The notes beneath the pieces were generated by a model. The model was not told where the DNA came from, made no database searches, and worked only from the letters and a program-made list of their open reading frames with translations. The position numbers and the translations under genes were made by a program. Source: Candidatus Omnitrophota bacterium (GTDB lineage: Bacteria > Omnitrophota > Gorgyraeia > Pluralincolimonadales > Pluralincolimonadaceae). From it: DNA of 64,000 bases. Below, one piece after another: positions 1-62,999 of this stretch (positions within the stretch are counted from its first letter, which is position 1; every line of letters begins with the position of its first letter). The stretch lies in NCBI GenBank assembly GCA_041651455.1, contig JBAZJG010000009.1:16450-80449 (forward strand), in the 5' to 3' direction.

Positions 1-44
1 TTTATCCTTATTCCGGGTGCAAGATGAACGCTGAAGGACGGTTC

Positions 45-2921
45 ATGAAAGTGAAGAGAGGCGTTGCGCTGATAATTGCCGTCGGCGTGCTCGCGCTTGT
101 CGCGATGATAGCGACGAGTTTCGCGATCAACATGCAGATGGAATACAGGGCCACGCTCAACTTCGTGAACCAGTCGCAGGCCGCGAATCTCGCGCAGGCC
201 GGCATCGACAGGGCTGTTGCCGATATCCGTTCGTGGGTCGCGAATAATACCTATGATGCCGCGATGGGGAATATCGCGGCAAATTATACGTCACCCGGTA
301 CGGAGGTCGACATAACGGGAGGAAGCTACCAGGTATTCGTCGAGAGGGAGGACCAGAAGATAAATATCAACGCCATCGACGAAACGGATTACCCGTGGAT
401 AGATACGCTCATGGCGGCCGGCTTGAGTGACGTCGATGTTGCGAGGATAATAGATTACCGTGACCCTGATTCCAACGCGCTGACACAGTTGTTAAGGTCC
501 ACAGGTGTAATTATTGCCGCCGGCAATGAGACGAACTCGAAGAATGCGCCTTACGCGAGCGTGGAAGAGCTGCGGCTCGTCCTTAATAATGATGCGAAAT
601 ATAACGCCGTCAGGGACCTTGTCACAATATATGCCCCGCTCATACAGGGCGGGCTCATATGCAAGGGTTATACGAACAGCAGGGATCCTTGGGACAGGGA
701 TACGATTCTGTCCCTGGGTTATTATTCCGGGAAGGTCATCGAGCTGGGCGCGATGAAGGAAGCCGTTGCAGCCAGTGCATCGCCGTGGCCTCCGTCAGGC
801 ACTTTTCCCGGCGCTGATGGCGTTAATTCTGGCTGGGGCGAGGCGCATGACGGAGAGTTTGCCGGAGGGTATTTGGTCGTCGATTGGCAGAACCGTTACG
901 GGCTGGATGGATGCGGGATGGTATTTACCGGTTTTATTTATATTCCCCAGAACAGGGTAAATACGAATATCGTATTCAGGATGCGCAGTGAGAATGGCTG
1001 CAGGCTTTTCATAGACGGAGTCCAGCTAATCGCCGACTGGAGCGACAGGACGATGGGCAGCTGGCCGGCCAACAACGTCCTGACCAGCGGGCCTGTACGG
1101 TTCACGCGCGGCGGGTGGCTTCCGATAAGAATTGACTATTATAATGCCGGGAACCAGAATACGCTGGAACTAAAGTGGGATGCTTTGGGCGCAGAGGACT
1201 TTGTTCCAGCCGATTACTTTGCTTTCTATCCTTCATCATATTACGGAAGGATCCTGGATAAATGGAATACGGATACTTATATTGCGGCGCCTACTCTCGG
1301 GACCGATTATAATTCCGGCGGTATCGTAAAAGTCGTGTCGACCGGAAAGGCAAAGAGGGCGGACGGAACTGTACTGGCGGAAAAGAGGATAACTTCCGTC
1401 GTGCAGGTCTTTAACACCCTCACGCAGACGACCAGGGCGGAATTCTACGCGTCGTGGTTCTCGAATTACAACGATTACAGCGACGGAGAGCTGAGAAATG
1501 TTACCTGGCTCGATAGTTGCCCTATAAGTGCCGATTCGTGGAACGGCTCATCCATGGCGTGGGAAACGGATACCTACAGCAAGAGCTATGATTCCGTCAA
1601 ACTCGGTTACTGGGATGATTTTGACGATGACATAGCATACAGCGTTATAAATTGGAGGGGCGGATACCTTACCAAGATAACGGGAATGCTTCCTTCCAGC
1701 CCCTATACTTTTCCTGATGGCAGGACTTTCTCGGTCCCGACCGGTATTATCTGGGCCGCCGATACTAGATGGGACCTCAGCTTTGGCGACACCTCCCTGA
1801 GGCAGGGTTTCAACGGGACCTACGGTCTCAGGCTCGATTGTAAGGGTAACTATAAAGAATGGGTGACGGTTCCGCCGAATCCTCCCGTGGAGGTTCAGTA
1901 TTACCCGGAAGAGAGGAGCGCTGAGCTTAACGGGAGTTTTTACTCTCCGGGAGCGGTCTTGGGTTATAATATCTTCGCCCGGTGTTATATTTATGATGAC
2001 GGGCAGAAGGAGACCTCCAGCGGAATATGGCACAGGTCTCCGAGCAAGCGCCTGACGAACCCGGGGCAGCCTACGCCTGCTTATACTCCGTCGTGGCTTA
2101 CAGGTTATCTCTTCTTAAAAGAAGATCCTTATGTGCAGGGTAACCCAAAGCCGGGCGGCGGGTATTATTGCCTTGTAAAAGACGGAGATAATGACCTTTA
2201 CGACGCGGATATGAACGAGCTTGATGTGCCCTCATATAGCATCCAAAACGGAACTTATTCCCTTTGGCCGGATGATACACAGTACTATATTTTGTCTTCG
2301 ATAGGAGTGGGGACTACTTACAGGATATATTATACATACAGGACTTCCGGAGGATGGGGTTTTATCCAGGGCAATGCACGAGGCGCCGGCAGCTCCACCA
2401 AGACGGGGGTGGTAAAGCTACGGGGTAATAATCTTTATTACGCTGATGTGGACCAATTTTGGGCGACTCATGCAAATAATGCTTTCATCGAGAAGCTCGC
2501 CGAACGCAACGCTGACTGGTGGGGATGTGACTCTGAGAGCGTAACGCAATTCGATAACATTAGGGTGATCTACCAAAAGGGGTATATCGTGTCCGCCCCG
2601 TTTATTACCAAACTGCCGACCGACAATGCCGCGATAACATGGGATTCCATAACATGGGCCGGCATTATCCCAGTTAATACGTCTATCACGATGTATGCAA
2701 GGGCGGCGGACAGCCCCTCGTCCACAGATAATTTTACCTCGAATTACGCAAGCGGCGCGTCATTATCGGGGTTGTCGGGCAGGAAGTTCCAGTACAAGGC
2801 GTTATTGGCCACGAACGCGCTTAACCCGAACGATTATTCGGCGAGCAGCGTCACGCCTGTTCTTACGGAAGTAACGGCAACATTCCACAAACCGTCGGCG
2901 CAGGTATTCTATCAGCAGTGA
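45..2921 (+). CDS. Giant GspK-like minor pseudopilin (about 958 aa) with an internal PA14 lectin-like domain. An alternative start is at 24.
   Basis: The N-terminus KRGVALIIAVGVLALVAMIATSFA is a GspK / prepilin-type hydrophobic segment. KININAID is an HhH-like GspK motif. Nt ~820-1215 carry the PA14 signature (FTGFIYIP...RLFIDGVQLIADW...LELKWD). The conserved VTWLDSCP motif is shared with the paralogs at 3811 and 7668. An RBS-like gaagga lies 8 nt before the ATG at 45. Confidence 0.6.
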   Translation: MKVKRGVALIIAVGVLALVAMIATSFAINMQMEYRATLNFVNQSQAANLAQAGIDRAVADIRSWVANNTYDAAMGNIAANYTSPGTEVDITGGSYQVFVEREDQKININAIDETDYPWIDTLMAAGLSDVDVARIIDYRDPDSNALTQLLRSTGVIIAAGNETNSKNAPYASVEELRLVLNNDAKYNAVRDLVTIYAPLIQGGLICKGYTNSRDPWDRDTILSLGYYSGKVIELGAMKEAVAASASPWPPSGTFPGADGVNSGWGEAHDGEFAGGYLVVDWQNRYGLDGCGMVFTGFIYIPQNRVNTNIVFRMRSENGCRLFIDGVQLIADWSDRTMGSWPANNVLTSGPVRFTRGGWLPIRIDYYNAGNQNTLELKWDALGAEDFVPADYFAFYPSSYYGRILDKWNTDTYIAAPTLGTDYNSGGIVKVVSTGKAKRADGTVLAEKRITSVVQVFNTLTQTTRAEFYASWFSNYNDYSDGELRNVTWLDSCPISADSWNGSSMAWETDTYSKSYDSVKLGYWDDFDDDIAYSVINWRGGYLTKITGMLPSSPYTFPDGRTFSVPTGIIWAADTRWDLSFGDTSLRQGFNGTYGLRLDCKGNYKEWVTVPPNPPVEVQYYPEERSAELNGSFYSPGAVLGYNIFARCYIYDDGQKETSSGIWHRSPSKRLTNPGQPTPAYTPSWLTGYLFLKEDPYVQGNPKPGGGYYCLVKDGDNDLYDADMNELDVPSYSIQNGTYSLWPDDTQYYILSSIGVGTTYRIYYTYRTSGGWGFIQGNARGAGSSTKTGVVKLRGNNLYYADVDQFWATHANNAFIEKLAERNADWWGCDSESVTQFDNIRVIYQKGYIVSAPFITKLPTDNAAITWDSITWAGIIPVNTSITMYARAADSPSSTDNFTSNYASGASLSGLSGRKFQYKALLATNALNPNDYSASSVTPVLTEVTATFHKPSAQVFYQQ

Positions 2922-3814
2922 GAGGGAGCGTCTTTATGAGGAATATCTTCATCCTTTTAGTGATAGCAAGCGTCTCTGCGGCGCCGGCATCATTTGCGGC
3001 GGGCGCGGATAAATATATAATTAAAGTTCCCGGAGACTGCACTACGATAAAAGAAGCTTGCGAGAGATCGCTTCCCGGCGATACGATACTGCTCGGCGAG
3101 GGCGAGTTCACGGCAGAAAACGGGATAGTGTTCAAAGGAAATACGAAGCTCGCGGGGCAGGGTGCCGACAAGACGGTCCTGAAACTCGGACCAACGGGGC
3201 TAGGGATCATATCCATCAACGGGAACATTAATAATTTTGCACTGAAGGATATAACTGTTGAGGTAAACGGCTATCCGTTTATGGTAAACGGGCTGGACGG
3301 CCTGCTTATTAAGAACTGCGTTTTCCGCGGAAAGAACCTCTCTACATGTCTTGAGATCAGCTCGGTCAGAAATGCGCAGATATTAAATTGCAATGTTGTG
3401 AACGGTGGTTACGGGCTGCAACTCTGGGGAGGCCCTATAGAACTTACTGTCAGGAACTGTATATTTTATAATAATAGAGTGGGAATCGACGTTCCTCGGC
3501 CTCCGATAATGGCAAATACCAGGGATTGGCCGAAAGAAGAAGTTGAAAAATACTGGCAGAGGCCGCGCGAAGATGTCCGCCTTGAGCTTGAATATAATGT
3601 TTTCTGGAATATAAAGGATTTCATAGATTGCAAGAAAGGCGCCAAAGACATAATGTCTGACCCCAGGTTCGCGAATCCTTCAAAGGACGATTATCACATC
3701 AAGGATAACTCCCCGTGTATCGATGCCGGCGATCCCGACAAGAAGTATGACGATCCGGACGGCTCGCGCAACGACATCGGTGCATTTCCTTCCGGCGGCA
3801 AGAAGAGGAAATGA
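2918..3814 (+). CDS. Secreted right-handed parallel beta-helix (pectin-lyase-fold) protein
   Basis: Signal peptide MRNIFILLVIASVSAAPASFAAG. Repetitive N/G/V/I-rich beta-helix rungs (NGNINNFALKDITVEVNG..., NCNVVNGGYGLQLWGG, NNRVGIDV). Overlaps the upstream gene by 4 nt. Confidence 0.5.
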   Translation: MRGSVFMRNIFILLVIASVSAAPASFAAGADKYIIKVPGDCTTIKEACERSLPGDTILLGEGEFTAENGIVFKGNTKLAGQGADKTVLKLGPTGLGIISINGNINNFALKDITVEVNGYPFMVNGLDGLLIKNCVFRGKNLSTCLEISSVRNAQILNCNVVNGGYGLQLWGGPIELTVRNCIFYNNRVGIDVPRPPIMANTRDWPKEEVEKYWQRPREDVRLELEYNVFWNIKDFIDCKKGAKDIMSDPRFANPSKDDYHIKDNSPCIDAGDPDKKYDDPDGSRNDIGAFPSGGKKRK

Positions 3815-6312
3815 CCATGTTAAGGAAGAAAAGGGGCGTCGCGCTTATAATAACGGTGGGCATGTTGTCGCTTATGGCGATACTTGCGACGTCTTTTGCC
3901 TACAATATGATGTTTGACCTCAAGGGATCGGTTAACCATGTATTCAAGCTGAAAGCCAAGAACGCAGCCGATGCCGGCATAGCCCTCGCGATTGCCTATA
4001 TGAGGAACCTCGCCATAACGGATTTTAACGCCACACCGACGGCATCATGTGATTGGGGTTATACAAACGCGTCGAGTCCGTCTTTCGATGCGCGCGACGG
4101 GACTGTGAACAATTCCACAAGCGGCCTTTTTGGGAATGTCGGCAGGAACAGTATAGCCGTATACTCGCTGAAAGTGGTTGACACCAATGCTCAGATAAAC
4201 GTCAATGACACAAACCCGAACCTCAGGGATATCCTAGGCAATCTCACGGAGGTTCTCGGCCTCGCGAGGGCGGACGGAGAAGCTATCGCCGACAACGCTA
4301 ACAGGCCGTTCGCGACGAAGGAAGAGGTGATGACCTCGACAGGATGGACAGCTGCGAAATATGCCGTGATCAGGGATTATATTGCCGTGAACGGTTATTT
4401 CGACGAAAACAGCGAGGATTCTACCGCACCGGTCCCTCTGGGGCCAGGCAGTTACCAGAGGAAGTCGCCGGTAAATATTAATACCGCGAGCTCCGAGGTC
4501 CTTCAGGCTGTCTTAAGGGGAGTGATCACCGACCAGCAAGCGGCGGCGCTTGCGGCCGCGATCATTGCCCAGCGCAACACCGTGCCGTTCAGGGGATGGA
4601 ATGCCGCAACAGCGGCAGGCGGTTTTGACGATTTTATCGATAACGTTTCCATAACGCCTGCGCTCGGTTTAAGCGACAGGGCTAATGTCAAGGATAACGC
4701 CAATCCGAACAGGATAAAGCCCTCGACAAGCACCACGGATTTCTGTTTTAACCCGGGCGGATTCTTTGAGATAACATCCACTGGAACGACGGGCGTTGAT
4801 GCCAATTCGGACGGGGACCTTTCGGATATCATCGACATGGTATCGGCTAAGCAGGAGACCGTCGTCATCGCCAGGATATACGAGGTCCTGAACTATACGA
4901 CAAAAGAGCAGTTCCGCGGGGAGGATGCCAATTATAACGGTGTCTTGGACCCAGGCGAGGATAAAAACGGCAACGGTATCCTTGAACTGCCTGTTTTTTC
5001 AAGGGTGACATGGCTGAATTCATGCCCCGTACTGTCAAACGAAGACCAGGGCCTTGTATATGCCGCGAACTATTCGACGATCCCCAATTCACTGAAACTC
5101 GGTTATTGGGATGGTTTCGACGAAGACAACGACAATGTCAGCAAGAACGGATACAGTTGGTCGAACTGGCAGCAGCAGAACGGGGTGTTGAACATATCCG
5201 ACAGCGACGCTGACGGCGAATGCGAGATGTGGGGATCGGGTTGGCCGAAGTTCGCGCTGGCGGATATCAGCAAGTGGACATTCGGAGGTACTTTCTCCTT
5301 TCGCGTATCTCTAAGGCCTTCCCCGGGCGGCGATGGATGGGAAGATTCCGGGCATATCGATTTTTCGTGGGCAGGGCAGGTTAAAGGTAAACTGTGGACG
5401 CAGAATTGGGGTTTCCAATACTCTCCAAGGAGGGATATTACCCGGCCGGGATGGACCGTGGCTAACGATTCTGCCACAAGCGAGCCCTCATCGGCAAGGG
5501 AGGGAAAGGATTTTGCTGACAGCAAGGTACTGCTCCACATGTGGAAAAACAGCCCCGCCCTGAGGAACGAGCGAACCTACAACCTTGGGTACCTGTATGG
5601 ATTAAGCGATCCTCAGATTAACCACTATTTCGATTATACGGCAACGTCTGGCGACCAGGGGGCGGAGCAGTTCCACGGCGTATGCCCCGTAAGGGAGACC
5701 CTGAAACTCGTCGTTAGTAACGCGCAGAGCCCCAATTACCGCGTCTATCTAGCCGTAGGGCAGGGTTGGCACAGGTATTATAATTTCAGTAACGGATGGT
5801 TCCTTAGCAGCGTAGGTTTCAGCCCGACGACTACCGGTTATGTGATGATACCGTTCCATGCCGACGCGTCGAACGAGCTTAAGCGCGACAGGTACGGTTT
5901 CTGGACAATAACCAACAATGACATAAACAGCTGGCAGCTTACGCAATGGTATCCCGTTCTTTACGGGAATAACGCTTCTCCGCAATGGGACGAACTGAGG
6001 ATAATATCCCCTGACGGGACATATCGCTGTCCGACCTTCATGGCGGGGGAGAACGTCAGGTGGGGGACGATATCCTGGACGGTGACGGTGCCTTCAACCG
6101 CTAACGCCTCATCTGAACAGGTTTCGATGCAGGTTGACACCGGCAGCGGCGCGGCAGCGGTGTCGAAAGACGGCCCGATAGGAGGCGTTTCGGGAGGCGC
6201 GGCCTTTATCGCGTTGCTTTCCAGCATTAACGCCAATTTCACGGAAACACCGGTCCTCGAAGACGTAACGTTGACTTATCTTCCGCCGGTTGAGATCGTA
6301 TATTGCAAATAG
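3811..6312 (+). CDS. Giant GspK-like minor pseudopilin, paralog 2 (833 aa)
   Basis: N-terminus KRGVALIITVGMLSLMAILATSFA. SPVNINTASSEVLQAVL is an HhH (GspK/ComEA-like) motif. Shares FRGEDANYNGVLDPGED and VTWLNSCP with the paralog at 7668. ATGA overlap with the upstream gene. Confidence 0.6.
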   Translation: MTMLRKKRGVALIITVGMLSLMAILATSFAYNMMFDLKGSVNHVFKLKAKNAADAGIALAIAYMRNLAITDFNATPTASCDWGYTNASSPSFDARDGTVNNSTSGLFGNVGRNSIAVYSLKVVDTNAQINVNDTNPNLRDILGNLTEVLGLARADGEAIADNANRPFATKEEVMTSTGWTAAKYAVIRDYIAVNGYFDENSEDSTAPVPLGPGSYQRKSPVNINTASSEVLQAVLRGVITDQQAAALAAAIIAQRNTVPFRGWNAATAAGGFDDFIDNVSITPALGLSDRANVKDNANPNRIKPSTSTTDFCFNPGGFFEITSTGTTGVDANSDGDLSDIIDMVSAKQETVVIARIYEVLNYTTKEQFRGEDANYNGVLDPGEDKNGNGILELPVFSRVTWLNSCPVLSNEDQGLVYAANYSTIPNSLKLGYWDGFDEDNDNVSKNGYSWSNWQQQNGVLNISDSDADGECEMWGSGWPKFALADISKWTFGGTFSFRVSLRPSPGGDGWEDSGHIDFSWAGQVKGKLWTQNWGFQYSPRRDITRPGWTVANDSATSEPSSAREGKDFADSKVLLHMWKNSPALRNERTYNLGYLYGLSDPQINHYFDYTATSGDQGAEQFHGVCPVRETLKLVVSNAQSPNYRVYLAVGQGWHRYYNFSNGWFLSSVGFSPTTTGYVMIPFHADASNELKRDRYGFWTITNNDINSWQLTQWYPVLYGNNASPQWDELRIISPDGTYRCPTFMAGENVRWGTISWTVTVPSTANASSEQVSMQVDTGSGAAAVSKDGPIGGVSGGAAFIALLSSINANFTETPVLEDVTLTYLPPVEIVYCK

Positions 6313-7514
6313 GAGAAGAGATGCGGGGACTTAAAAATTTGGCCTTCGTTTTGTTGTTATCTGCCGTTATCTTGTGCCTGGGCGAGGCGCAGGCGGATAT
6401 TATTGAGTTGAAGGAGGCGGGGGAAAAGATAGACGGGAAGATAATCGAGGAAAGCGACACTCATGTGACCGTGAAACTCAAGACGGGGGGAAAGAGCACC
6501 TTTCCCAAAGCGTGGATAAAGAACATAAAGAAAGCGGAGATACCGGAAGAGGAACTTTATACGAAGCAGGACGTATACCTTTCGAAGCTCAAGATGCTTG
6601 ACCCGAATGATGCCGAAGCGCAGTTAAGCATCGCCAAGTGGTGCTTTGATAATGCCACCGCGGACAACGGGCTCTTTGAAATGGCCGACAGGCACTATAA
6701 GGCCGCGAAAGAGTTGGACCCGAAATTTGCCGAAAAAGGCGGCAAGGAGCTTGCCGCTGCACAGGAGAAAGAGGCAGAAAAACTGTTTTCCGTAGCGGAA
6801 ACCGAATATAAGCTGGGCGAATATTTTAAGGCCGAACAGATGGCGATATCGGTGATTTCGCTTTACCCGGATTCCTCTTTTGCGGGAAAAGCCAGGGGGC
6901 TTATAGCGAAGATCTGGGGTAATGCCAGGGCGCCGAAGATATTCGATAACCCGCAGAACCTGCCCGAGATCGTATTTACGGTTGAAGAGATGCAATCAGT
7001 GCTTTCCCATATGGGCACCGAAGAGCGCAAGCAGGCGTATTTCATGAAGTGCCTTGATCGCGGTATAGATTACGAGGAGCGGGCGGAGGAGGTCGATAAA
7101 GACAGGAAGGGCGGGTATTATATGGCAGCGATATCATGTTACGATGTCGTTTCGGGTTCAGCCGCAGGCCAAGTGAAGAAATCCGCCGACTTCAAGATGC
7201 AAGGCTCATTAAAAAAATATTTTGACGGTAAACCGGAGCCGTTCAGCGATGCACGTTACGCGCTGATGGCCGGATATATTCTAAAGATACAGGACCCGTC
7301 TTATATAGAAAAGCTTACCGTCCAATATTCCAAGCTGGGCGACGAGTTGTTTAAGAAAGCGAAGAGGATGAAGCAGCCTGAGAAATCAGAAAAAGCCAAA
7401 ACGGCGTATTTTTGCTTCTCGATCGTAAACAATTATTCAAAAGACGAAATGATAAGGCAGGATGCCTTCGAGAAAATGATAGAATGCCAGCGCCTTGAGA
7501 GAGCGCGCAAGTAG
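6303..7514 (+). CDS. Secreted partner protein of unknown function, paralog A. The probable start is at 6321.
   Basis: Signal peptide MRGLKNLAFVLLLSAVILCLGEAQA. Paralogous to 10255..11457, with the same C-terminus (E/V)CQRLERARK and a shared KQPEK...AYFC(F/Y)SI block. No family recognised. Confidence 0.45.
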   Translation: MQIGEEMRGLKNLAFVLLLSAVILCLGEAQADIIELKEAGEKIDGKIIEESDTHVTVKLKTGGKSTFPKAWIKNIKKAEIPEEELYTKQDVYLSKLKMLDPNDAEAQLSIAKWCFDNATADNGLFEMADRHYKAAKELDPKFAEKGGKELAAAQEKEAEKLFSVAETEYKLGEYFKAEQMAISVISLYPDSSFAGKARGLIAKIWGNARAPKIFDNPQNLPEIVFTVEEMQSVLSHMGTEERKQAYFMKCLDRGIDYEERAEEVDKDRKGGYYMAAISCYDVVSGSAAGQVKKSADFKMQGSLKKYFDGKPEPFSDARYALMAGYILKIQDPSYIEKLTVQYSKLGDELFKKAKRMKQPEKSEKAKTAYFCFSIVNNYSKDEMIRQDAFEKMIECQRLERARK

Positions 7515-7520
7515 ATGTAT

Positions 7521-7575
7521 AAAATCTTGCTTTTGAAAAGAAATATTTGACATCACGGTGATAATCTTGTATACT
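7521..7575 (+). promoter_or_regulatory. Conserved about 25-nt A-rich upstream element plus a sigma70 promoter: TTGACA (7547-7552), 17-nt spacer, TATACT (7570-7575).
   Basis: Read directly from the sequence. The same cassette recurs at 11465..11520 with about 90% identity, although the flanking coding sequence has diverged much more. Confidence 0.55.
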
Positions 7576-7667
7576 TTAATAAAATAAGAAAACCGATAAA
7601 AGAAGAATTATTTTTTTTGAGCAAAAATGCCCCCGTGGGCATTCAATCAAACCATAGGGTTGAAGCA

Positions 7668-10247
7668 ATGAATAGCAGTAACAGGAAGGGTGTCGCTCTC
7701 ATCATAACGGTAGGGATCCTTGCGCTCCTGGCTATGATTGCGACCTCTTTCGCGTATAATATGATGGTTGACCTCAAGGACGCCGCCAATTATGTATTGA
7801 AGATGAAGGCAAAGAACGCGGCTGAAGCGGGGGTAAACCTTTCGATAGCACACCTCAGGATGCTTGCCACAAGCGATTTCAATGCAGTCCCTACAACCGC
7901 ATGCGATTGGGCATATACGAGTTCCACGCAGCCGTCATTCGACGGCCGCGACGGCACAGCAGGCAATTCAACGAGCGGATTGCTGGGCGATGTCGGCAGG
8001 GGGCATATCGCCGTGTGTTCGTTGAGGGTTACCGACACCAATTCACAGATAAACATAAACGACACCAACCCGAACCTGAATGTCATCCTTGGCAATCTCG
8101 GGACCATTTTGGCCATTCCGGGATGGGCACAGGCGAATGCGGACAGCATGGTCTCCGGAAGGCCTGCGGGCGGTTATGCGACCAAGGAAGGGATAGTCGA
8201 ATATATGCCGGGCGCCGACCTGACGGCAAAGAGGGCTAATTATGCCCTTATAAGGGACTTCGTGACCGTCAACAGCTATATAGACCAATACAGCGAGGAC
8301 GCGGCCGCCCCGTTGCTTACCAGTAATAATTACCAGAGCAAGTCGCCGGTCAATATCAACACGGCAAGGAGGGAGGTATTGCGCGCGGTCCTGCGCCCGC
8401 TTGTCAGCACGGATGTGAACGCGGCTCAGGTAGCCAACGCGATAGTCACCGCGAGGACAATGGTCTCCCCGTTCCGGAGCTGGAACGGGACTGCGGCACA
8501 GGGAGGTTTCAATGCTTTTATAGACAACATAAATCCGACCATACTGAACAATCCGCAGAAGGAGGCCATCAAGAATAATTTCAACCCGAACAAGGTCAAA
8601 CAGGGCACATATACGACGGATTTCTGTTTCCACCCGGGCGGTCTATACGAGATCGTCTCGACCGGCACGGTCGGATTAGACAATAATTCGGACGGCGCGG
8701 TTGAGGATGTCAAGGCAAGGCAGGAGCTCACCGCGGTCGCGAGGATATACAGCATCCTTAATTATACGGCAAAGGAGCAGTTCCGCGGCGAGGACGCGAA
8801 CTATAACGGCATTTTGGACGCGGGCGAGGACGCGAACAGCAACGGCGCAATCGACAGCCCGACGTTCCAGAATGTGACATGGATGAATTCATGCCCGGTG
8901 GTCTCGACGGAAGGCGACAGCGTCAAATATCCCGCGGTCGGCGGTTATACGGCAGTTCCGAATTCCATCAAGCTCGGAGTTTGGGATAATTTTGACGAGG
9001 ACAATTACGATACGAACGGAGACGGAGTGGTCGAGAACGGCTTCAGTGTCTGGGCGTGGACAAAATTGTCCGGCGGGCTGTCGACAAGAGAAATAAGAGA
9101 TGCCGATGCCGACGGCGATATGGAGATTTATGGTACCGGAGACTATTCGGGGTCCCCGTGGATTTACCCTAAATTCCAATTAAGGCCGGACTGGGTATTC
9201 GGAAAAAGGTTCTCGCTTAGGGCCTTTCAGATCCCGAATGTAGACGGGGACGGAATAGACGATGGCGGTCATATAGATTTCACTAGTTTCGCCGCCGGCA
9301 CCACATATGGATCCTTGCTGATGATGAGATTTGCATATAACTATCCGGGAGGCAGGGATATGACCAGGCCTCCTGCGTCAGTAATATGGGATGATTCTGC
9401 CACAGCTGCCGGTAATGCAAAAAAAGGCAAGGATTTTCCCGATAGCAGCATCTTCCTGAAGATGAGTAACACCAGTATGCGTCTATACAGGCTGGGCGAC
9501 CTGTACGGTTATACAGACCAATTTACGGACCACTATAATTTTTGTACCGATCCTACAGCAGGTGCCGTTACTTTTTTTGAAGAGGGGATAGATAGGTATC
9601 ACGGGGTAATGCCGGAAATATATACTTTGAAACTTGCCGTGAGCCCCGATTTGTCGCCAAATTACCGGGTCTGGTTCGCGGTCGGGAACATAAATACCGC
9701 CGAACAATATGACTATCATAACGGTACATATACCGGGTTTATAGCGTGTTCAGCTCCGTCCGCTAATTTTATGGCAGTTCCGATACATACCAGTTCGCGC
9801 ATGTCTTATGATAGGTATGACTGTCACGATATAGCTTGCCCCAGCAATACCTGGAATATCAGCGCATGGTACCTGACGCTTTACGGGCAGCATTCCTCCA
9901 CAACATGGGATGAGGTAAGGGTCATACCCGATACCGGGTTTTACCAGTCGTCCGCATTTGCGGCATCGTTACTTAACGGCGGTAATCCCGTAATATGGGG
10001 TACGGCTTCATGGACTATTAGCATACCTTCCACCGCTAGCCCGGCAAGTGAAATATGTAACGTACAAACGGATATCGGAAGCGGAATGGTGAATGCTGCA
10101 TATAACGGGGCAATAGGGGGGTCCTCAAACTCAATCTACTATAAGATAAATTTATCCTCGATCGACACGGATTGCAGCGAGACGCCGGTCTTCGAGGACA
10201 TGACTATAACTTATCTACCCAGGGTAAGCATATTATATCAGAGGTAA
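7668..10247 (+). CDS. Giant GspK-like minor pseudopilin, paralog 3. The ORF track begins at a TTG at 7617, but the start is more likely the ATG at 7668.
   Basis: N-terminus RKGVALIITVGILALLAMIATSFA. SPVNINTARREVLRAVL is an HhH motif. VTWMNSCP motif present. A 7-bp hairpin (7626-7643) and a T8 tract lie between 7617 and 7668, so the 5' end is probably untranslated. Confidence 0.6.
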   Translation: MNSSNRKGVALIITVGILALLAMIATSFAYNMMVDLKDAANYVLKMKAKNAAEAGVNLSIAHLRMLATSDFNAVPTTACDWAYTSSTQPSFDGRDGTAGNSTSGLLGDVGRGHIAVCSLRVTDTNSQININDTNPNLNVILGNLGTILAIPGWAQANADSMVSGRPAGGYATKEGIVEYMPGADLTAKRANYALIRDFVTVNSYIDQYSEDAAAPLLTSNNYQSKSPVNINTARREVLRAVLRPLVSTDVNAAQVANAIVTARTMVSPFRSWNGTAAQGGFNAFIDNINPTILNNPQKEAIKNNFNPNKVKQGTYTTDFCFHPGGLYEIVSTGTVGLDNNSDGAVEDVKARQELTAVARIYSILNYTAKEQFRGEDANYNGILDAGEDANSNGAIDSPTFQNVTWMNSCPVVSTEGDSVKYPAVGGYTAVPNSIKLGVWDNFDEDNYDTNGDGVVENGFSVWAWTKLSGGLSTREIRDADADGDMEIYGTGDYSGSPWIYPKFQLRPDWVFGKRFSLRAFQIPNVDGDGIDDGGHIDFTSFAAGTTYGSLLMMRFAYNYPGGRDMTRPPASVIWDDSATAAGNAKKGKDFPDSSIFLKMSNTSMRLYRLGDLYGYTDQFTDHYNFCTDPTAGAVTFFEEGIDRYHGVMPEIYTLKLAVSPDLSPNYRVWFAVGNINTAEQYDYHNGTYTGFIACSAPSANFMAVPIHTSSRMSYDRYDCHDIACPSNTWNISAWYLTLYGQHSSTTWDEVRVIPDTGFYQSSAFAASLLNGGNPVIWGTASWTISIPSTASPASEICNVQTDIGSGMVNAAYNGAIGGSSNSIYYKINLSSIDTDCSETPVFEDMTITYLPRVSILYQR

Positions 10248-10254
10248 TAAAGGA

Positions 10255-11457
10255 ATGAACAGAGCGAGAATACATAAAGTTTGGATATTCATATTGGCTT
10301 ATGCCGCAGCATCGGCTTGGGCCGTAGTCCGGGCGGATGATGTAATCCTAAAAGAGAGCGGACGTGTCATTGTCGGCAGGATACTCGGAGAAAAAGACGG
10401 GATGCTTACCGTAAAGATGACTAAAGGCGGTACCTGCGTTCTCCCGAGGGATTGGATAAAGCAGATAATAAAGAAAGATATTGCCGACGAAGAGCTTTTT
10501 ACCAAAGGTGATTTATATCGGCAGAAGCTGAAAGACATCGATCCGGAATCCGCGGAAGACCATCTGTCGCTTGCCGATTGGTGCCTTAAGAACGGAACTC
10601 CGGAAAACGGAATGCTCTTTGCCGCCGAATCCCATTTTAATATTGCGATGCAGATTGATCCGGACTCCGCAAAACGCGGATCGGCAGAACTTCTAAAGGC
10701 AAGGGAGAAGACTGCCGAGAAGTCCTACTCTATAGCCGTGATAGAGTATGATAACGGAGAATACATTAAATCAGAAACCGAAGCACTATCGCTTATTTCC
10801 GCGTATGGTGAGACAAGATATGCATTAAAGGCTAAGGACTTGCTTGTCAAAATATGGGGCAAGGACAGGGCAGCCGCGTTACTGGAACCTAAAGATGATT
10901 TGCTTCCGGGAATTGTATATACAAAGGAAGACTTGCAGTCTGTTCTTTCAAACTTCCAAAATGAGGAGCAGGCAGAGCTGTATTTTTTGAAATGTATAAG
11001 AAAAGCGAAAGATTGCGAGCAGAGGAGCGAGGAAGTCCCTGTAGGCAAGAGGGCAGGTTATTACAGGATAGGCATTGACTGCTACAGAAATGTTTTGTCA
11101 AGCGTAAAGCCTGAGGTAAGGGCCATTGCAGATTTAAATATGCAGGTATTGCTTAAGAAATATTTTGTCGACCCGCCGGCATTGTACAGTGATTATTATT
11201 TCTCTCTTGCATCCAATATGATGCTGTTAATAAAGGACCAGCAACTCGTTCAGGATATAAGCACGCGGTACTCGGAGACAGGAGACGGATTATTCAAGAA
11301 GGCAAGAAGGCAAAAGCAGCCCGAGAAGGGCAAGAACGCAATGGCCGCATATTTCTGTTATTCCATAGCAAATAATTTTTCTAAGGACGGGAAGATAAGG
11401 GAGAATGCTATTGAGAATATGGTCGAATGCCAGCGCCTGGAGAGAGCACGCAAGTAG
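10255..11457 (+). CDS. Secreted partner protein, paralog B
   Basis: Signal peptide MNRARIHKVWIFILAYAAASAWA. Colinear with 6303..7514, including the C-terminal VECQRLERARK. Confidence 0.45.
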   Translation: MNRARIHKVWIFILAYAAASAWAVVRADDVILKESGRVIVGRILGEKDGMLTVKMTKGGTCVLPRDWIKQIIKKDIADEELFTKGDLYRQKLKDIDPESAEDHLSLADWCLKNGTPENGMLFAAESHFNIAMQIDPDSAKRGSAELLKAREKTAEKSYSIAVIEYDNGEYIKSETEALSLISAYGETRYALKAKDLLVKIWGKDRAAALLEPKDDLLPGIVYTKEDLQSVLSNFQNEEQAELYFLKCIRKAKDCEQRSEEVPVGKRAGYYRIGIDCYRNVLSSVKPEVRAIADLNMQVLLKKYFVDPPALYSDYYFSLASNMMLLIKDQQLVQDISTRYSETGDGLFKKARRQKQPEKGKNAMAAYFCYSIANNFSKDGKIRENAIENMVECQRLERARK

Positions 11458-11464
11458 GAGCGTC

Positions 11465-11520
11465 AAAATCTTGCTTTGGAAAAAGAAATAATTGACAACC
11501 GGGTTCTAATTTTATAGAAT
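11465..11520 (+). promoter_or_regulatory. Second copy of the conserved upstream element plus a sigma70 promoter: TTGACA (11492-11497), 17 nt, TAGAAT (11515-11520). It leaves only about a 7-nt leader before the pilM ATG at 11534.
   Basis: Read directly from the sequence. No Shine-Dalgarno motif lies between the -10 box and the ATG, which suggests a near-leaderless mRNA. Confidence 0.5.
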
Positions 11521-11533
11521 ATACGCAAGCCAT

Positions 11534-13132
11534 ATGGGAAAACGTGCTCTTGGAATCGATATAGGCGCAGGCTCAGTCAAGCTCGTAGAGCTTGAGAAGA
11601 CATCCGAAGGCGTGCAACTCCTTCGGGCAAAGTTTTTTGACCTCACTCAGCACCCCGACCAGGAGAAACGCGAAGCCCTCGTAAGGGAAGGTCTCGAAGG
11701 GCTCCTCAAGACAGAAAAGATCAGAAGCGGCAATACTGCAATATCCCTCTCAGGCCAATCAGTCTTCATCAGGTTCCTTAAGCTCCCCAAGATACAAAAA
11801 GGCAAAGTAGACAAGATAATAAAATACGAGGCCCAGCAGCAGGTTCCGTTCCCCCTTGATAAGATAACCTGGGACCACCAGATATTCCATAGCAGTGCCG
11901 GCCCGGAAGAGGATGTGCTCTTTGTCGCCGCCAAGAAGGAGCTTGTCGAGGCCACGTTATTGAATTTTTCGAGGACCGGCCTCAACGTCGAGATCGTCGA
12001 CGTGAGCCCGCTCTCACTACTCAACGCGATCACCTACAACGAGCCTCTCGCCAAAGGCGTCATAATAGATATAGGAGCGAAGGCGACGAACCTGATAGTC
12101 CTCGACGCAAAGGGCTTCTGGGTGCGCTCGGTGCTTGTGGCAGGCGATGAAATGACGCACGCGATAGCGTCGAAAATGAACATACCGTTCGACAAGGCCG
12201 AAGAACTCAAGCGCAAGGAAGGCATGGTCGTCCCGTCGGACAACCTCGTGCCGTCGAACATAAGCTCTACGGGCCAGGAGCTGGTAAACATACTTAATAC
12301 AGTTGTCTCCGACATGGTCTCGTCGATAATACAATCCCTGGAATTTTATAAGTCAAAGCACGGCAGGGACGTAGTCTTTGGAGAGGTAATACTCTCCGGC
12401 GGCGGTTCGAAGCTGAAGGGCATAGAGGACTACCTTGCAAAAGGCCTAGGAATGCAGATAAGGCGCGCGAACCTCGGCCAGAAGATAAAATGCCCTTCAA
12501 ACCTCAGGGTAGACATAGATTTCCAGTCGAGGTTCGGGGCCGCGATAGGCCTCGGCCTGCGCCTGCTCCAGAGATGCCCCACGAATATAGACCTGCTGCC
12601 TGCCGAAAGGAAAGAGGACAGGGATTTCAAGAAGGAAAGGATCTGGATAATGGCGGCAGGGGTCATGCTGTCGCTGATACCTTTCACGATAGCGATGAAT
12701 ATATGGTTCCAGTCCGGTGCGCTCAGGAAACAGATAATGTTTCTCGACGACATATTGGCGCAATATGACGACGTGAAAGCGAAAATAGCGTTGCTGAAAG
12801 ACGATATCAAGAAGGGCGAACAGAAGATAAAACCGCTCGAAGGCGTCGCTATAAGGAGATCGTTGCTTTTGGAGGCGCTCCTTGAAGTCGAGAAGCTGCT
12901 CCCGAAAGAGACGTGGTTGACCTCGCTTAGCGAAGAGAAGGATTGGGTCTCTATAGAAGGCAGGACTTCAGAGAACCTTCTCACTATAACGGAGTTCAAG
13001 AACAAGCTTTCTGCGTCATCGTTGTTCGATTCGGTTGAAATAATCTACGCTAGCCTTCCGAAGGATTCCGAGGAAGGTATTGGCCAGTTGAGGGATTTTT
13101 CGATCAAGTTCAAACTGAAGGCAGGACAGTAG
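11534..13132 (+). CDS. pilMN: PilM-PilN fusion protein (type IV pilus / T2SS inner-membrane assembly)
   Basis: The N-terminus ALGIDIGAGSVKLVEL is the actin-like PilM signature. The C-terminal third has a TM helix (IWIMAAGVMLSLIPFTIAMNIWF) followed by a coiled coil, as in PilN. Confidence 0.65.
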   Translation: MGKRALGIDIGAGSVKLVELEKTSEGVQLLRAKFFDLTQHPDQEKREALVREGLEGLLKTEKIRSGNTAISLSGQSVFIRFLKLPKIQKGKVDKIIKYEAQQQVPFPLDKITWDHQIFHSSAGPEEDVLFVAAKKELVEATLLNFSRTGLNVEIVDVSPLSLLNAITYNEPLAKGVIIDIGAKATNLIVLDAKGFWVRSVLVAGDEMTHAIASKMNIPFDKAEELKRKEGMVVPSDNLVPSNISSTGQELVNILNTVVSDMVSSIIQSLEFYKSKHGRDVVFGEVILSGGGSKLKGIEDYLAKGLGMQIRRANLGQKIKCPSNLRVDIDFQSRFGAAIGLGLRLLQRCPTNIDLLPAERKEDRDFKKERIWIMAAGVMLSLIPFTIAMNIWFQSGALRKQIMFLDDILAQYDDVKAKIALLKDDIKKGEQKIKPLEGVAIRRSLLLEALLEVEKLLPKETWLTSLSEEKDWVSIEGRTSENLLTITEFKNKLSASSLFDSVEIIYASLPKDSEEGIGQLRDFSIKFKLKAGQ

Positions 13133-13134
13133 AT

Positions 13135-13899
13135 ATGGCAAAGGGCATTAAGCCGCATGTAATGACGAAACTTGTGCTGGGGCTCGTGTTCCTCGGGTCC
13201 CTTTGTGTCGCCATATTTGTCGCTTTCGACAGGTCTTCCCTCGAGAGATCCATACAGGATAAGACCGGCGAACTCGAGAGTTATAAGGATCAGGGGCTTG
13301 CCGTCCTTAATAGGGATAGGCTCAGGCTCGAAAAACAGCTTAAGGCCCTTAAGGACGTGAACGACCAATTGAGTGCCGGGCTCTTCTCGAACCCGAAATC
13401 AAAGATGCCGAAGGAAGCCGGCGATGCGTTAAAGTTCAAGGAAGAACTTTACAGGGTCCAGAACAAGATAAAGGAAGAAGGGATGCCGATAGATTTCCAG
13501 TTCCCGTTCTGGCTCGGTTTCGAAAGATATGAGCACGATATTCCCGTTTCAGCCGATCTGCCTGTCAGGGCTAAGCAGCTCGAGATAATAAAAGAGATCA
13601 TGGATTTGATGTTGCAGGCGAAGGTTCCTGAGGTGTCGTCAATAGAGTTCCTCGAATCGAAGAACGTGACTTATGACGGCGGCAAGGAGCCGATGTTCAG
13701 GGAGTTCCCTGTAAGGATGTCATTCAAATGCAAGAACGACAACCTTCTCGGTTTCTTGTATAAGATATATGTTTCCGGTATACCTTTCAGAGTGGACATG
13801 CTCAAGATCAAGGTCCTTAATGAGGAGACCGGCGAGAAGGGCGAGCTTAAAGTGGAAGCCGTTATAGTGGCTGCAATACAGCAGGCGGATAAGATATGA
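13135..13899 (+). CDS. PilO-like bitopic membrane protein
   Basis: N-terminal TM helix (LVLGLVFLGSLCVAIFVAF), a coiled-coil segment and a periplasmic domain. Its position right after pilMN matches PilO. Confidence 0.4.
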   Translation: MAKGIKPHVMTKLVLGLVFLGSLCVAIFVAFDRSSLERSIQDKTGELESYKDQGLAVLNRDRLRLEKQLKALKDVNDQLSAGLFSNPKSKMPKEAGDALKFKEELYRVQNKIKEEGMPIDFQFPFWLGFERYEHDIPVSADLPVRAKQLEIIKEIMDLMLQAKVPEVSSIEFLESKNVTYDGGKEPMFREFPVRMSFKCKNDNLLGFLYKIYVSGIPFRVDMLKIKVLNEETGEKGELKVEAVIVAAIQQADKI

Positions 13900-14567: not shown

Positions 14568-14572
14568 TATAA

Positions 14573-15691: not shown

Positions 15692-15693
15692 AT

Positions 15694-18247: not shown

Positions 18248-18347
18248 AGCAACCAGTCTTGTTTGGGTTTCACGCCTGTTTGTTTTTCCCGCACATTGCC
18301 TACACCGGAAATGTACCCATTAAAAAGTAGAAATTTCATATAAAGAT

Positions 18348-59998: not shown

Positions 59999-60168
59999 GA
60001 GCCGATGTTTTGAAAGCAGAGCTTCTATTTATACGAAGTTAAGTAGAAAACCACCCCAAATTCCCTTTGAATTACCTAATTTAGGCCTTATAATGTTATA
60101 TGAAGTAAAAAATCTTAAATATAAATTCATATGTTACGCTAATAAATTGGTTCAAGGAAGGATAGATA

Positions 60169-62984: not shown

Positions 62985-62999
62985 AAAAGGAGCGGTAAG

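What the first reader, a model, noticed from the sequence alone, without database searches (positions are those of the whole stretch)
24..11533. Three tandem cassettes of giant GspK-like minor pseudopilins, each with a secreted partner gene
Three paralogous proteins of 830-965 aa begin with a prepilin / GspK-type N-terminus ((K)RGVALII.VG.L.L.AMIATSFA) and carry the HhH-like NINTA motif of T2SS protein K. They also share a conserved VTW(L/M)(N/D)SCP motif. Known GspK/PilX-type minor pseudopilins are 150-350 aa. These carry 500-700 aa of extra, partly divergent C-terminal modules. Each has a conserved C-terminal strand (TPV(L/F)EDVT.TYLP...). Each is followed by a secreted partner: a beta-helix protein for copy 1, and a paralogous ~400-aa protein pair for copies 2 and 3. 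The layout, conserved N-terminal anchor plus variable distal modules, looks like a repertoire of alternative pilus-tip or pseudopilus-tip adhesins assembled by the downstream pilMNOP / secretin operon.
Basis: partly seen in the sequence, partly recalled or inferred. Interest (0 to 1): 0.8.

Follow-up and report, generated by a model that had tools for sequence, protein, structure and literature searches.

The report
Giant lectin-tipped GspK pilus caps
An uncultivated Omnitrophota bacterium encodes three oversized versions of the cap subunit of a type IV pilus / type II secretion filament, each fused to sugar-binding-type domains and paired with its own helper gene; this looks like a swappable set of sticky pilus tips.

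Summary
Window 24-11457 carries three paralogous K-type minor pilin genes: A 965 aa, B 833 aa, C about 860-876 aa. Each is followed by a gene for a protein with an N-terminal signal-like segment.

An ENA contig with the same genes extends upstream: GspE, GspF, GspG, GspI-like and GspJ-like genes lie directly before A. PilMN, PilO-like, PilP-like and secretin genes follow C.

Related operons hold one, two or three cassettes. Against the closest relative, machinery genes are 88-98% identical. The distal half of A plus the beta-helix gene, and the distal half of C plus its partner, are only 54-70%. The variable region in C starts near the K-domain/distal junction.

Stand-alone paralogs lie among CBM, GH94, GH26 and sugar-regulator genes.

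Best reading: alternative glycan-binding pilus-tip caps, a new variant of "modular pilins". Tip location, glycan binding and the partners' role are inferred. No prepilin peptidase was found in the window.

The parts
24..2921 (+). K_A: giant K-type minor pilin, 965 aa. The leader ends at G13 (nt 57-62 encode RG). The GspK-like part covers about aa 12-205. A PA14-containing insert covers about aa 206-440, with the Pfam PA14 match at aa 315-390 (nt 966-1193). The junction motif VTWLDSCP is at nt 1500-1523. The distal region is aa 501-965.
   Evidence: NCBIfam T2SS_GspK E 2.1e-13 over aa 12-203. Pfam PA14 27.3 bits, above the 24-bit cut-off. The A-family profile hits the RsgI3 PA14 (6qe7) at 6.5e-23 and GspK 3ci0_K at 0.02. 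All 25 homologs found carry PA14, and NCBI names the protein 'PA14 domain-containing protein'.
2918..3814 (+). Partner of K_A: 298-aa right-handed beta-helix protein with an N-terminal hydrophobic signal-like segment. Its start overlaps the stop of K_A, and its stop overlaps the start of K_B.
   Evidence: Pfam Beta_helix 28.5 bits, above the 25.9-bit cut-off. A beta-helix gene follows A-type K genes in L002, L003, L004, L008, L011, L058, L059, L061, L064 and L072. It shares the low identity of K_A against L002 (54%) and the higher identity against L008 (76%).
3811..6312 (+). K_B: giant K-type minor pilin, 833 aa. The leader ends at G9. The N-terminal helix is aa 5-70. The GspK alpha/beta fold runs to about aa 365 (nt 3811-4905), with NINTA at nt 4474-4488. 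Calcium-loop-like DxNxNG/DxDxDG motifs are at aa 330, 372, 384 and 464. The junction motif VTWLNSCP is at nt 5005-5028. The distal beta-rich lectin-like region is aa 395-833 (nt 4993-6309).
6303..7514 (+). Partner1: 403 aa. It has an N-terminal hydrophobic helix, a small five-strand beta-barrel (aa 28-81) and an all-alpha TPR-like domain (aa 88-400).
7515..7616 (+). Intergenic region homologous to the one upstream of pilM. It holds a 19-nt repeat (7521-7539) and a promoter-like site, TTGACA-17-TATACT (7547-7575).
   Evidence: Repeat D7. One of the two best promoter-like matches outside coding sequence, 11 of 12. Alignment with 11458-11533.
7617..10247 (+). K_C: giant K-type minor pilin, 876 aa from the TTG start; the true start may be the ATG 17 codons downstream. 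The leader ends at G25. NINTA is at nt 8352-8366 and the junction motif VTWMNSCP at nt 8874-8897. The distal region starts at about nt 8850.
   Evidence: phmmer vs K_B 5e-233. NCBIfam T2SS_GspK E 2.8e-12 over aa 24-289. Identity to B is 53-68% in the GspK part and 38-42% in the distal part.
10255..11457 (+). Partner2: 400-aa paralog of partner1.
   Evidence: 47% identity, E 4e-121. Like the distal part of K_C, it is less similar to L002 than the machinery genes are (70% to L002, 74% to L008).
11458..11533 (+). Intergenic region before pilMN, with a promoter-like site TTGACA-17-TAGAAT (11492-11520) and a repeat copy (11465-11483).
11534..13132 (+). PilM-PilN fusion (GspL-like architecture), 532 aa.
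   Evidence: Pfam PilM_2 1.9e-34 and PilN 1.7e-8. TIGR01175 pilM 152 bits, above the 133-bit cut-off; Amuc_1101 family 270 bits, below its cut-off.
13135..13899 (+). PilO/GspM-like protein of the Amuc_1100 type, 254 aa.
   Evidence: NCBIfam Amuc_1100_fam 1e-8, below cut-off. Precomputed Pfam PF28028 Amuc_1100 on the identical gene in L001.
13896..14567 (+). PilP/GspC-like protein, 223 aa (weak assignment).
   Evidence: NCBIfam pilP_fam 0.012 and GspC_delta 0.035. Its position is conserved in all related operons.
14573..15691 (+). TPR plus N0-like outer-membrane component, 372 aa. It corresponds to the N-terminal part of the Amuc_1098-type secretin.
   Evidence: TPR Pfam hits and weak STN / GspD_N0 hits. 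Amuc_1098_fam 2.6e-13.
15694..16809 (+). Secretin-domain protein 1, 371 aa.
   Evidence: NCBIfam GspD 7.9e-45, MshL, PilQ, all below cut-off. Precomputed Pfam Secretin on the L001 copy.
16806..17927 (+). Secretin-domain protein 2, 373 aa, a paralog of secretin 1.
   Evidence: NCBIfam GspD 2.9e-52 and PilQ 1.6e-48, below cut-off. phmmer between the two secretins 1e-81.

Best explanation
A, B and C are modular K-type minor pilins, the capping and priming subunit of a type IV filament.

The proposed mechanism has five steps.
1. Each protein is made with a GspK-type class III leader (K/R-G|VALII...) and has no Glu at position +5. A prepilin peptidase encoded elsewhere would cleave it.
2. The long hydrophobic N-terminal helix and the GspK alpha/beta domain dock onto the single GspI-like/GspJ-like pair encoded just upstream. 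This forms the tip complex.
3. That complex primes polymerisation of the GspG-type major pilin. Polymerisation uses the GspE/GspF motor, the PilMN/PilO/PilP platform and the split secretin encoded in the same operon.
4. Because K sits at the very top, the 450-600 extra residues are displayed at the filament tip. These are a concanavalin-A-like lectin fold in B and, by homology, in C, and PA14 plus a divergent distal module in A. There they bind glycans, either on a host or prey cell envelope or on polysaccharide particles.
5. The three K proteins compete for one I-J platform, so a cell can make pili with three different heads.

The distal module and the downstream partner gene appear to be inherited and exchanged as a unit, starting near a conserved junction (VTW.xSCP...KLG.WD.FD.D). 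The partner is either a beta-helix protein or a beta-barrel-plus-TPR protein. It most likely docks on or chaperones the bulky head.

Shown here: the GspK fold, the lectin-type fold, PA14, the operon context, the copy-number variation, the mosaic divergence and the glycan-gene neighbourhoods of the stand-alone paralogs.

Inferred: processing, tip location, glycan binding, competition between the three K proteins and the partners' role.
For: - **K-type N-terminus.** Gly at -1 and Ile at +5. The upstream G, I-like and J-like proteins have G|FT(I/L)IE or G|LTLVE with Glu5.
- **Operon.** GspE-GspF-GspG-I-J-K...PilMN-PilO-PilP-TPR/N0-secretin x2.
- **PA14 in A.** Above the Pfam cut-off, and most similar in the PDB to the PA14 of RsgI3.
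- **Cassette number.** 1, 2 or 3 in related operons.
- **Mosaic divergence.** Machinery genes are 88-98% identical to L002, but K_A is 64%, beta-helix 54%, the distal part of K_C 62-70% and partner2 70%. The otherwise more distant L008 is closer in those segments. The variable segment in C starts at about nt 8800, near the K/distal junction.
- **Family-restricted frame.** The distal frame occurs only in this family: 112 clusters out of 1.84 billion representatives. Nearly all are 650-1040 aa proteins matched at the same relative position, and the middle part is variable.
- **Neighbourhoods of stand-alone paralogs.** Among 146 neighbours in 23 loci: 12 PEP-CTERM, 10 LacI/GntR sugar regulators, 8 CBM11, 7 GH94, 6 sugar ABC permeases, 4 GH26/CBM9. 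None of these families appears among the 38 housekeeping proteins of the rest of the window.
- **Precedent.** Modular pilins with lectin or PA14 modules are documented, and PilC of S. sanguinis is a tip-located glycan-binding pilin with a concanavalin-A-like module (PMC8179133, PMC9934059).
Against: - No experiment or expression data exist.
- No prepilin peptidase was found in the 64-kb window, and the rest of the genome was not available.
- NCBIfam GspK scores (47-52 bits) are far below the equivalog cut-off of 130 bits.
- The GspK fold was modelled only for B. For A only the first half of the K domain is recognisable by sequence.
- Lectin-type folds also include enzymes (GH16, PL7). Absence of one motif does not exclude catalysis.
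- The distal modules have no Pfam hit, so ligand specificity is unknown.
- The gene-neighbourhood argument applies to stand-alone paralogs in other genomes, not to the three genes of the window. It has only a small informal control.
- Tight packing suggests all three are largely co-transcribed, so there is no sign of a switch that selects one.
- Whether a roughly 100-kDa head passes this unusual split secretin is not known.
Confidence: 0.62

Rival explanations
1. This is a classical type II secretion reading. The filament is a short periplasmic pseudopilus that never leaves the cell. The oversized K proteins are piston tips whose lectin and PA14 modules recognise or push cargo. The adjacent signal-bearing proteins (the beta-helix protein and the TPR-like proteins) are the secreted substrates or their chaperones.
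For: The ATPase next to GspF passes the GspE cut-off (655 > 630 bits) but not the PilB cut-off (652 < 676). The major pilin has the T2SSG domain and best matches GspG. The K alpha-domain is a T2SS hallmark. No PilT is seen in the available sequence of this lineage. Beta-helix proteins are typical exo-enzymes.
Against: The platform is PilM/PilN/PilO/PilP-like, not GspC/L/M. Related operons carry a bona fide PilT (446 > 319 bits, L024; PilT-sized genes in L014, L025, L028, L032, L047). Seymour et al. classify these Omnitrophota clusters as type IVa pili and report that V. archaeovorus expresses type-4a pili (PMC10066038). Fast, mosaic evolution of the distal modules fits surface-exposed ligand binders better than an internal piston. 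Partner1/2 are TPR-like scaffolds, not enzymes.
Confidence: 0.15
2. This is a bindosome-like or surface-display reading. The K-like proteins are glycan-capturing proteins that use the class III leader and pilin-like helix only as an export and anchoring device. They sit in the envelope, or in a short pilin-based scaffold, and feed oligosaccharides to ABC transporters and phosphorylases. They are not adhesive tips of long pili.
For: Stand-alone paralogs lie next to sugar ABC permeases, solute-binding proteins, GH94 phosphorylases, GH26/CBM9, CBM11-PEP-CTERM proteins and LacI/GntR sugar regulators, without I or J genes. The distal folds are lectin or CBM type. From my own knowledge, archaeal sugar-binding proteins with class III signal peptides assembled by the Bas system are a precedent.
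Against: The full GspK capping domain is conserved in all members, including the stand-alone ones (T2SSK above gathering score in L012, L019, L046). That would be unnecessary for a mere anchor. The three genes of the window sit between I/J and the assembly platform. This reading is not exclusive of tip display: a tip-displayed CBM on a retractile pilus would also serve foraging.
Confidence: 0.13
3. This is a redundancy or decay reading. Only one K is functional, and the other copies are recent duplicates drifting toward loss, without distinct roles.
For: Many related operons work with a single K. C arose by tandem duplication that copied the K gene, its partner and the downstream promoter-like region.
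Against: All three ORFs are intact here, in the ENA contig and in L002, which has diverged by about 10-15% at the nucleotide level. A-type and B-type are old, separately conserved lineages, each with its own partner type. Paralogs keep the K domain and the frame while the head diverges, which is the pattern of functional diversification.
Confidence: 0.05

Closest known systems
GspK / XcpX, the minor pseudopilin K of type II secretion systems (PDB 3ci0_K, 5vtm_X)
   Different: It is 2.5 to 3 times larger. About 450-600 extra residues form lectin-type or PA14 modules. There are three copies in one operon, each with a partner gene. Scores are below the NCBIfam equivalog cut-off. The platform is PilMNOP-like, not GspCLM.
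Modular type IV pilins, especially PilC (concanavalin-A-like lectin module) and PilB (vWA module) of Streptococcus sanguinis (PMC9934059, PMC8179133)
   Same: The design principle is the same: a pilin carrier with a grafted ligand-binding module displayed at the tip. The same fold superfamily is involved (concanavalin-A-like lectin/glucanase). PA14 and lectin architectures are listed among modular pilins in PMC8179133.
   Different: Here the carrier is the K cap itself, which already has an alpha-domain insert, in a secretin-containing (diderm-type) machinery. The distal module has no database signature, so signature-based surveys are unlikely to list the B/C type. Tandem alternative copies, dedicated partner genes and mosaic exchange are not features described for the S. 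sanguinis pilins in the passages of those papers I read.
PilY1 / PilC tip adhesin of diderm type IVa pili
   Same: By inference, the functional position is the same: a large effector presented by the H-I-J-K minor-pilin complex at the pilus tip. B and C also contain calcium-loop-like motifs.
   Different: PilY1 is a non-pilin with a C-terminal beta-propeller. No such domain is found here, and no PilY1 gene is seen in the operon. The effector is covalently part of K.
Verru_Chthon cassette proteins A-D (NCBIfam TIGR02600, TIGR02598, TIGR02599), uncharacterised
   Same: The cassette logic is similar in the same PVC-related part of the tree. The A model is 1296 positions long and starts with a K-like segment. 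The I-like and J-like proteins here hit cassette proteins B and C.
   Different: Only the first ~60 residues match (14-25 bits against a 332-bit cut-off). The distal architecture is different. Function is unknown for both.
Akkermansia Amuc_1098-Amuc_1102 type IV pilus-like cluster
   Same: The PilM-like (Amuc_1101 family), Amuc_1100-like and Amuc_1098-like components match. This places the machinery in the PVC-type pilus group.
   Different: All scores are below the equivalog cut-offs. The secretin is split into three genes here. As far as I know, giant K cassettes are not part of that cluster.
ComZ of Thermus thermophilus and CofB of ETEC (large minor pilins with extra structural domains; cited in PMC8179133)
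   Same: These are oversized tip-associated minor pilins in which an added domain provides ligand binding.
   Different: The added folds are different (beta-solenoid; beta-repeat/beta-sandwich). They are single copies, with no K alpha-domain and no partner cassette.

Membership tests
GspK (T2SS minor pseudopilin K) | Class III-type leader ending in Gly, a hydrophobic N-terminal helix, and no Glu at position +5 | tested here: met
   K/R-G|VALII..., with Ile at +5, in A, B and C. The neighbouring G, I-like and J-like proteins have Glu5. The model helix covers aa 5-70.
GspK (T2SS minor pseudopilin K) | Pilin fold with an alpha-domain inserted in the beta-sheet | tested here: met
GspK (T2SS minor pseudopilin K) | Score above the curated family thresholds | tested here: not met
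   NCBIfam NF037980 gives 50.5, 52.2 and 46.8 bits against a cut-off of 130. Pfam T2SSK passes only for B (28.2 > 24.2). C scores 19.6 and A has no hit.
GspK (T2SS minor pseudopilin K) | Encoded after gspI and gspJ in an operon with gspE, gspF and gspG | tested here: met
   L001: GspE-GspF-GspG-I-like-J-like-A. The order is conserved in more than 20 related loci.
GspK (T2SS minor pseudopilin K) | Forms the tip heterotrimer with GspI and GspJ | not testable with these tools
   No complex prediction tool was available.
Classical T2SS (machinery) | GspC, GspL and GspM assembly platform | tested here: not met
   The platform is a PilM-PilN fusion, an Amuc_1100/PilO-like protein and a PilP-like protein. 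The GspM and GspC hits have E > 0.03.
Type IVa pilus (machinery) | PilM/N/O/P plus a PilQ-type secretin, a PilB-type extension ATPase and a PilT retraction ATPase | tested here: inconclusive
   PilM passes its cut-off (152 > 133 bits) and PilN is found by Pfam. The ATPase scores 652 bits for PilB, below the 676-bit cut-off, and 655 bits for GspE, above the 630-bit cut-off. PilT is present in related operons (L024, 446 > 319 bits) but not seen in the sequence available for this lineage. The major pilin is of the GspG type.
Modular type IV pilins (Raynaud et al. 2021, PMC8179133) | An N-terminal pilin module fused to an additional module that is not specific to pilus biology | tested here: met
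   A K-type pilin module plus a lectin-type fold in B and PA14 in A. Note that the IPR012902/N_methyl signature used in that survey is not detected in the K proteins.
PilY1 / PilC tip adhesins | C-terminal PilY1-type beta-propeller; a non-pilin with a Sec signal | tested here: not met
Verru_Chthon cassette protein A (TIGR02600) | Full-length match above 332 bits | tested here: not met
   14-25 bits, covering residues 1-62 of a 1296-position model only.
GH16 / concanavalin-A-like glucanases (enzyme reading of the distal fold) | Catalytic ExDxxE (or ExDxE) motif on the jelly-roll | tested here: not met
   The motif is absent from A, B and C (regex). There is no GH16 Pfam hit. Other catalytic types were not excluded.

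The most novel reading that the evidence does not exclude
Omnitrophota, which are mostly ultra-small and thought to depend on hosts or prey, have replaced the PilY1-type tip adhesin. In its place they use a programmable system in which the K cap of the pilus carries the receptor-binding head. Heads are exchanged between lineages together with a dedicated partner gene by recombination near a conserved junction. Several heads are kept in tandem or as stand-alone genes wired to glycan-utilisation loci. The family would then determine host or substrate range for the phylum's main surface organelle. In that sense it would be comparable to phage receptor-binding-protein cassettes, but built on a pilus.
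Probability: 0.3. Interest if true: 0.78.

Novelty: new variant of a known kind. Interest (0 to 1): 0.6.

Why it matters
Omnitrophota are widespread, uncultivated and mostly ultra-small. Their type IV pili are the main candidate organelle for attaching to hosts, prey or particles (PMC10066038). What the pili recognise is unknown.

This family gives a concrete candidate for the recognition element. It is a K cap with lectin-type and PA14 heads that varies in copy number and shows mosaic divergence between close relatives.

For pilus biology, it would extend the 'modular pilin' idea from monoderm minor pilins to the K cap of a secretin-containing machinery. It also offers an alternative to PilY1.

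Public annotation misses the architecture. Copy A is named only 'PA14 domain-containing protein' and B 'GspK'. The distal module has no database signature, so signature-based surveys are unlikely to find the B/C type.

The heads can be expressed and tested on glycan arrays, which makes host and substrate specificity of an uncultivated phylum directly testable.

Tried and rejected
- **afdb50 fold search.** The library was not available, so I could not ask whether the full architecture exists in UniProt models outside this phylum.
- **Pfam on the isolated distal regions of A, B and C.** No hits.
- **Enzyme reading of the lectin fold.** No ExDxxE or ExDxE motif.
- **PilY1 and Verru_Chthon cassette A membership.** Rejected.
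- **Phase-variation switch.** No convincing inverted repeats or invertible promoter. The only inverted pair is 22 nt, 82% complementary and 5.6 kb apart. Terminator-like sites are not above the shuffled expectation.
- **Prepilin peptidase.** Not found among the 38 downstream proteins of the window, nor in the upstream flanks of related loci that I read by eye.
- **Longer contig of the same genome.** The look-up returned only the 29-kb ENA contig. The 82,950-bp NCBI contig was not delivered.
- **hhalign of the A family against the B family.** Probability is 100%, but alignment A2 contains A itself, so this is not an independent test.

Full report
**What is in the window.**

All long ORFs in 1-18,400 lie on the + strand and are tightly packed:
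- A: 24-2921, 965 aa.
- Beta-helix protein: 2918-3814, 298 aa.
- B: 3811-6312, 833 aa.
- Partner1: 6303-7514, 403 aa.
- C: 7617-10247, 876 aa from a TTG start, possibly about 859 aa from an internal ATG.
- Partner2: 10255-11457, 400 aa.
- Then a PilM-PilN fusion, a PilO-like protein (Amuc_1100 type), a PilP-like protein, a TPR/N0 protein and two paralogous secretin-domain proteins, ending at 17927.
- PolA and housekeeping genes follow.

A, B and C are paralogs. B vs C gives 5e-233, and A vs B or C gives 1e-17 to 1e-22. Partner1 and partner2 are 47% identical.

NINTA occurs in B and C but not in A.

**Identity of the N-terminal part.**

NCBIfam's GspK model matches all three at E 1e-12 to 1e-14, below its cut-off. 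Pfam T2SSK passes for B.

I built an alignment of B with 30 homologs and A (A2). The resulting AlphaFold model has pLDDT 83.6 and pTM 0.81. It shows a 65-residue N-terminal helix, an alpha/beta domain to about residue 365, and a beta-rich region from 395 to 833.

The leader ends in Gly and position +5 is Ile, as expected for the K cap. The neighbouring G, I-like and J-like proteins have Glu5.

**The rest of the machinery.**

The window starts 23 nt before A. An ENA contig encoding identical A and B proteins and the same gene order (L001) extends upstream.

The machinery is a hybrid.
- The ATPase passes the GspE cut-off but not the PilB cut-off.
- The pilin is GspG-like.
- The platform is PilM/N/O/P-like.
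- Related operons include a genuine PilT.

The organism is Candidatus Omnitrophota. Seymour et al. classify these clusters as type IVa pili and link them to attachment to host cells (PMC10066038). That paper does not mention GspK.

**The extra modules.**

B and C have several DxNxNG/DxDxDG calcium-loop-like motifs, and A has none.

A has a PA14 domain (Pfam above cut-off) where B and C have the second HhH repeat. A profile of 25 A-type homologs hits the PA14 of RsgI3 at 6.5e-23.

Between A and B, only the junction (VTWL.SCP...KLGYWD.FD.D, E 1e-7) and the last ~120 residues (E 3e-4) align.

I ran an exhaustive HMMER search with the distal 439 aa of B. It found only 112 clusters among 1.84 billion representatives. 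Nearly all are 650-1040 aa proteins matched at the same relative position. The junction and the C-terminal ~115 aa are conserved and the middle is variable. The distal region is therefore a family-specific frame around a variable core.

**Partners.**

In L072 the gene after an A-type K fuses the partner's N-terminal barrel region to a beta-helix domain. This suggests that the barrel is a shared docking element and the rest is a variable payload. That is inference.

Across related loci, B-type K genes are followed by the TPR-like partner family and A-type K genes by a beta-helix gene.

**Comparative genomics.**

A pattern scan of one genome per species found 77 related loci. Most records are titled Omnitrophota. 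Others are titled Planctomycetia or Planctomycetota, Auribacterota, PVC group, Actinomycetota or simply bacterium. Several genomes have more than one locus.

The conserved operon is GspE(x2-3)-GspF-GspG-(H)-I-J-K-[partner]-PilMN-PilO-PilP-TPR/N0-secretin(s)-...-PolA. Cassette numbers vary:
- Three cassettes: the window, L001 and L002.
- Two cassettes: A+B types in L003, L004 and L011; A+C types in L008.
- One cassette: B type in at least nine loci, A type in five loci.

A second cluster with three K genes exists in some genomes (L041, L060, L063).

The third cassette arose by tandem duplication. The intergenic region after partner1 is homologous to the one before pilM, and both carry 11-of-12 promoter-like sites (7547-7575 and 11492-11520).

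**Mosaic divergence.**

Against the closest genome (L002), machinery proteins are 88-98% identical and the B cassette is 88-89%. In contrast, K_A is 64%, the beta-helix protein 54%, K_C 78% (N part 91-94%, distal part 62-70%) and partner2 70%.

The otherwise more distant L008 is closer in exactly these segments: 82%, 76%, 81% and 74%.

Sliding nucleotide identity places the variable segments at about 800-3600 and 8800-11200. The second begins near the K/distal junction of C. A 42-nt stretch encoding the junction is the best-conserved DNA shared by all three genes.

This pattern fits exchange or replacement of 'head plus partner' units. It is what one expects of exposed ligand-binding parts.

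**Stand-alone paralogs.**

Many K paralogs lie away from any machinery gene. Around them, in 146 same-strand neighbours within 4.5 kb across 23 loci, the commonest Pfam families are:
- PEP-CTERM, 12.
- LacI/GntR-type sugar-regulator domains, 10.
- CBM11, 8.
- GH94 phosphorylase, 7.
- Sugar ABC permease, 6.
- PilZ, 6.
- GH26/CBM9, 4.

None of the CBM11, GH94, PEP-CTERM or LacI/GntR families occurs among the 38 housekeeping proteins of the rest of the window. This is only an informal control. It points to glycans as the ligands of the family.

**Interpretation.**

The best-supported reading is that A, B and C are modular K-type cap pilins that present glycan-binding heads at the tip of a type IV filament. 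They would act as alternatives on one I-J platform, each with a cognate partner that docks on or chaperones the head. I put confidence at about 0.6.

The K identity and the lectin-type and PA14 folds are shown. Processing, tip display, glycan binding, competition and the partner role are inferred.

The rivals are:
- a non-extending T2SS pseudopilus whose neighbours are cargo;
- a bindosome-like display of glycan-capturing proteins;
- simple redundancy.

**Relation to what is known.**

Modular pilins are established. PilC of S. sanguinis carries a concanavalin-A-like lectin module and binds glycans at the pilus tip. Lectin and PA14 architectures were catalogued among more than 1,200 modular pilins (PMC8179133, PMC9934059).

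The following appear new:
- the K cap of a secretin-containing machinery as the carrier;
- a family-specific distal frame that has no database signature;
- tandem and stand-alone alternative copies;
- cognate partner genes;
- mosaic head-plus-partner divergence.

NCBI annotates B as GspK and A merely as 'PA14 domain-containing protein'. I rate this a new variant of a known kind, with interest about 0.6.

Noticed in passing
window 14573-17927: The secretin is split and duplicated. There is a TPR+N0-like protein (372 aa) followed by two paralogous ~370-aa secretin-domain proteins (phmmer 1e-81 between them). The pair is conserved in most related Omnitrophota operons. L013, L015, L023 and L024 instead have one 680-711-aa protein that matches both parts. 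This may indicate a heteromeric secretin.
   Followed up: partly
window 11534-13132: PilM and PilN are fused into one 532-aa protein, which reproduces the GspL architecture. It matches the Akkermansia Amuc_1101 family below the cut-off.
   Followed up: partly
L002 1477-3210; window 22949-23467: The ATPase next to GspF has an MshEN-type c-di-GMP-binding N-terminal domain (61 bits > 38-bit cut-off). A small GGDEF protein lies 5 kb downstream of the operon. PilZ proteins are frequent next to stand-alone K genes. Together these hint at c-di-GMP control of the pilus.
   Followed up: no
window 7515-7616 and 11458-11533: These are two homologous intergenic regions. Each has a 19-nt repeat directly after the partner stop codon and an 11-of-12 sigma-70-like promoter match. 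The duplication that created cassette C therefore copied the region upstream of pilM.
   Followed up: yes
L041, L060, L063 (for example L063 629-13084): Relatives such as UBA6215 carry a second cluster elsewhere in the genome. It has three giant K genes (about 960, 1040 and 1030 aa) interleaved with partner-like genes, after a J-like gene. One of these K proteins has a weak CBM_4_9 hit and another a weak Laminin_G_3 hit.
   Followed up: partly
L019 9253-18830 and equivalents in L016-L020, L046, L048: Stand-alone K genes are embedded in what look like glycan-utilisation loci. These contain a CBM11+PEP-CTERM protein, GH26+CBM9, CBM30, a GntR/sugar-binding regulator, a GH94 phosphorylase and a GH2-like enzyme.
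   Followed up: partly
window 1-64000: Every likely gene in the 64-kb window is on the + strand, and GC skew is positive in every 2-kb bin.
   Followed up: no
window 58000-63000: GC content drops from about 0.57 to 0.45-0.47. The region holds a DUF3800 protein (58903-59829), an unassigned 232-aa ORF (60169-60867) and a glucoamylase-like protein (60945-62984). It may be an acquired segment.
   Followed up: no
window 32684-35020: A 778-aa ORF has no Pfam match and overlaps the 3' end of the rlmN-like gene. It is followed by genes for C1 / tetrahydrofolate metabolism: FTHFS, FolD, MTHFR and a MetH-like protein.
   Followed up: no
L001 2906-4510 versus L014 7720-8796 and L024 8135-8632: The lineage of the window lacks a GspH-like gene between the major pilin and the I-like pilin. 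Other Omnitrophota operons have one or two there.
   Followed up: no
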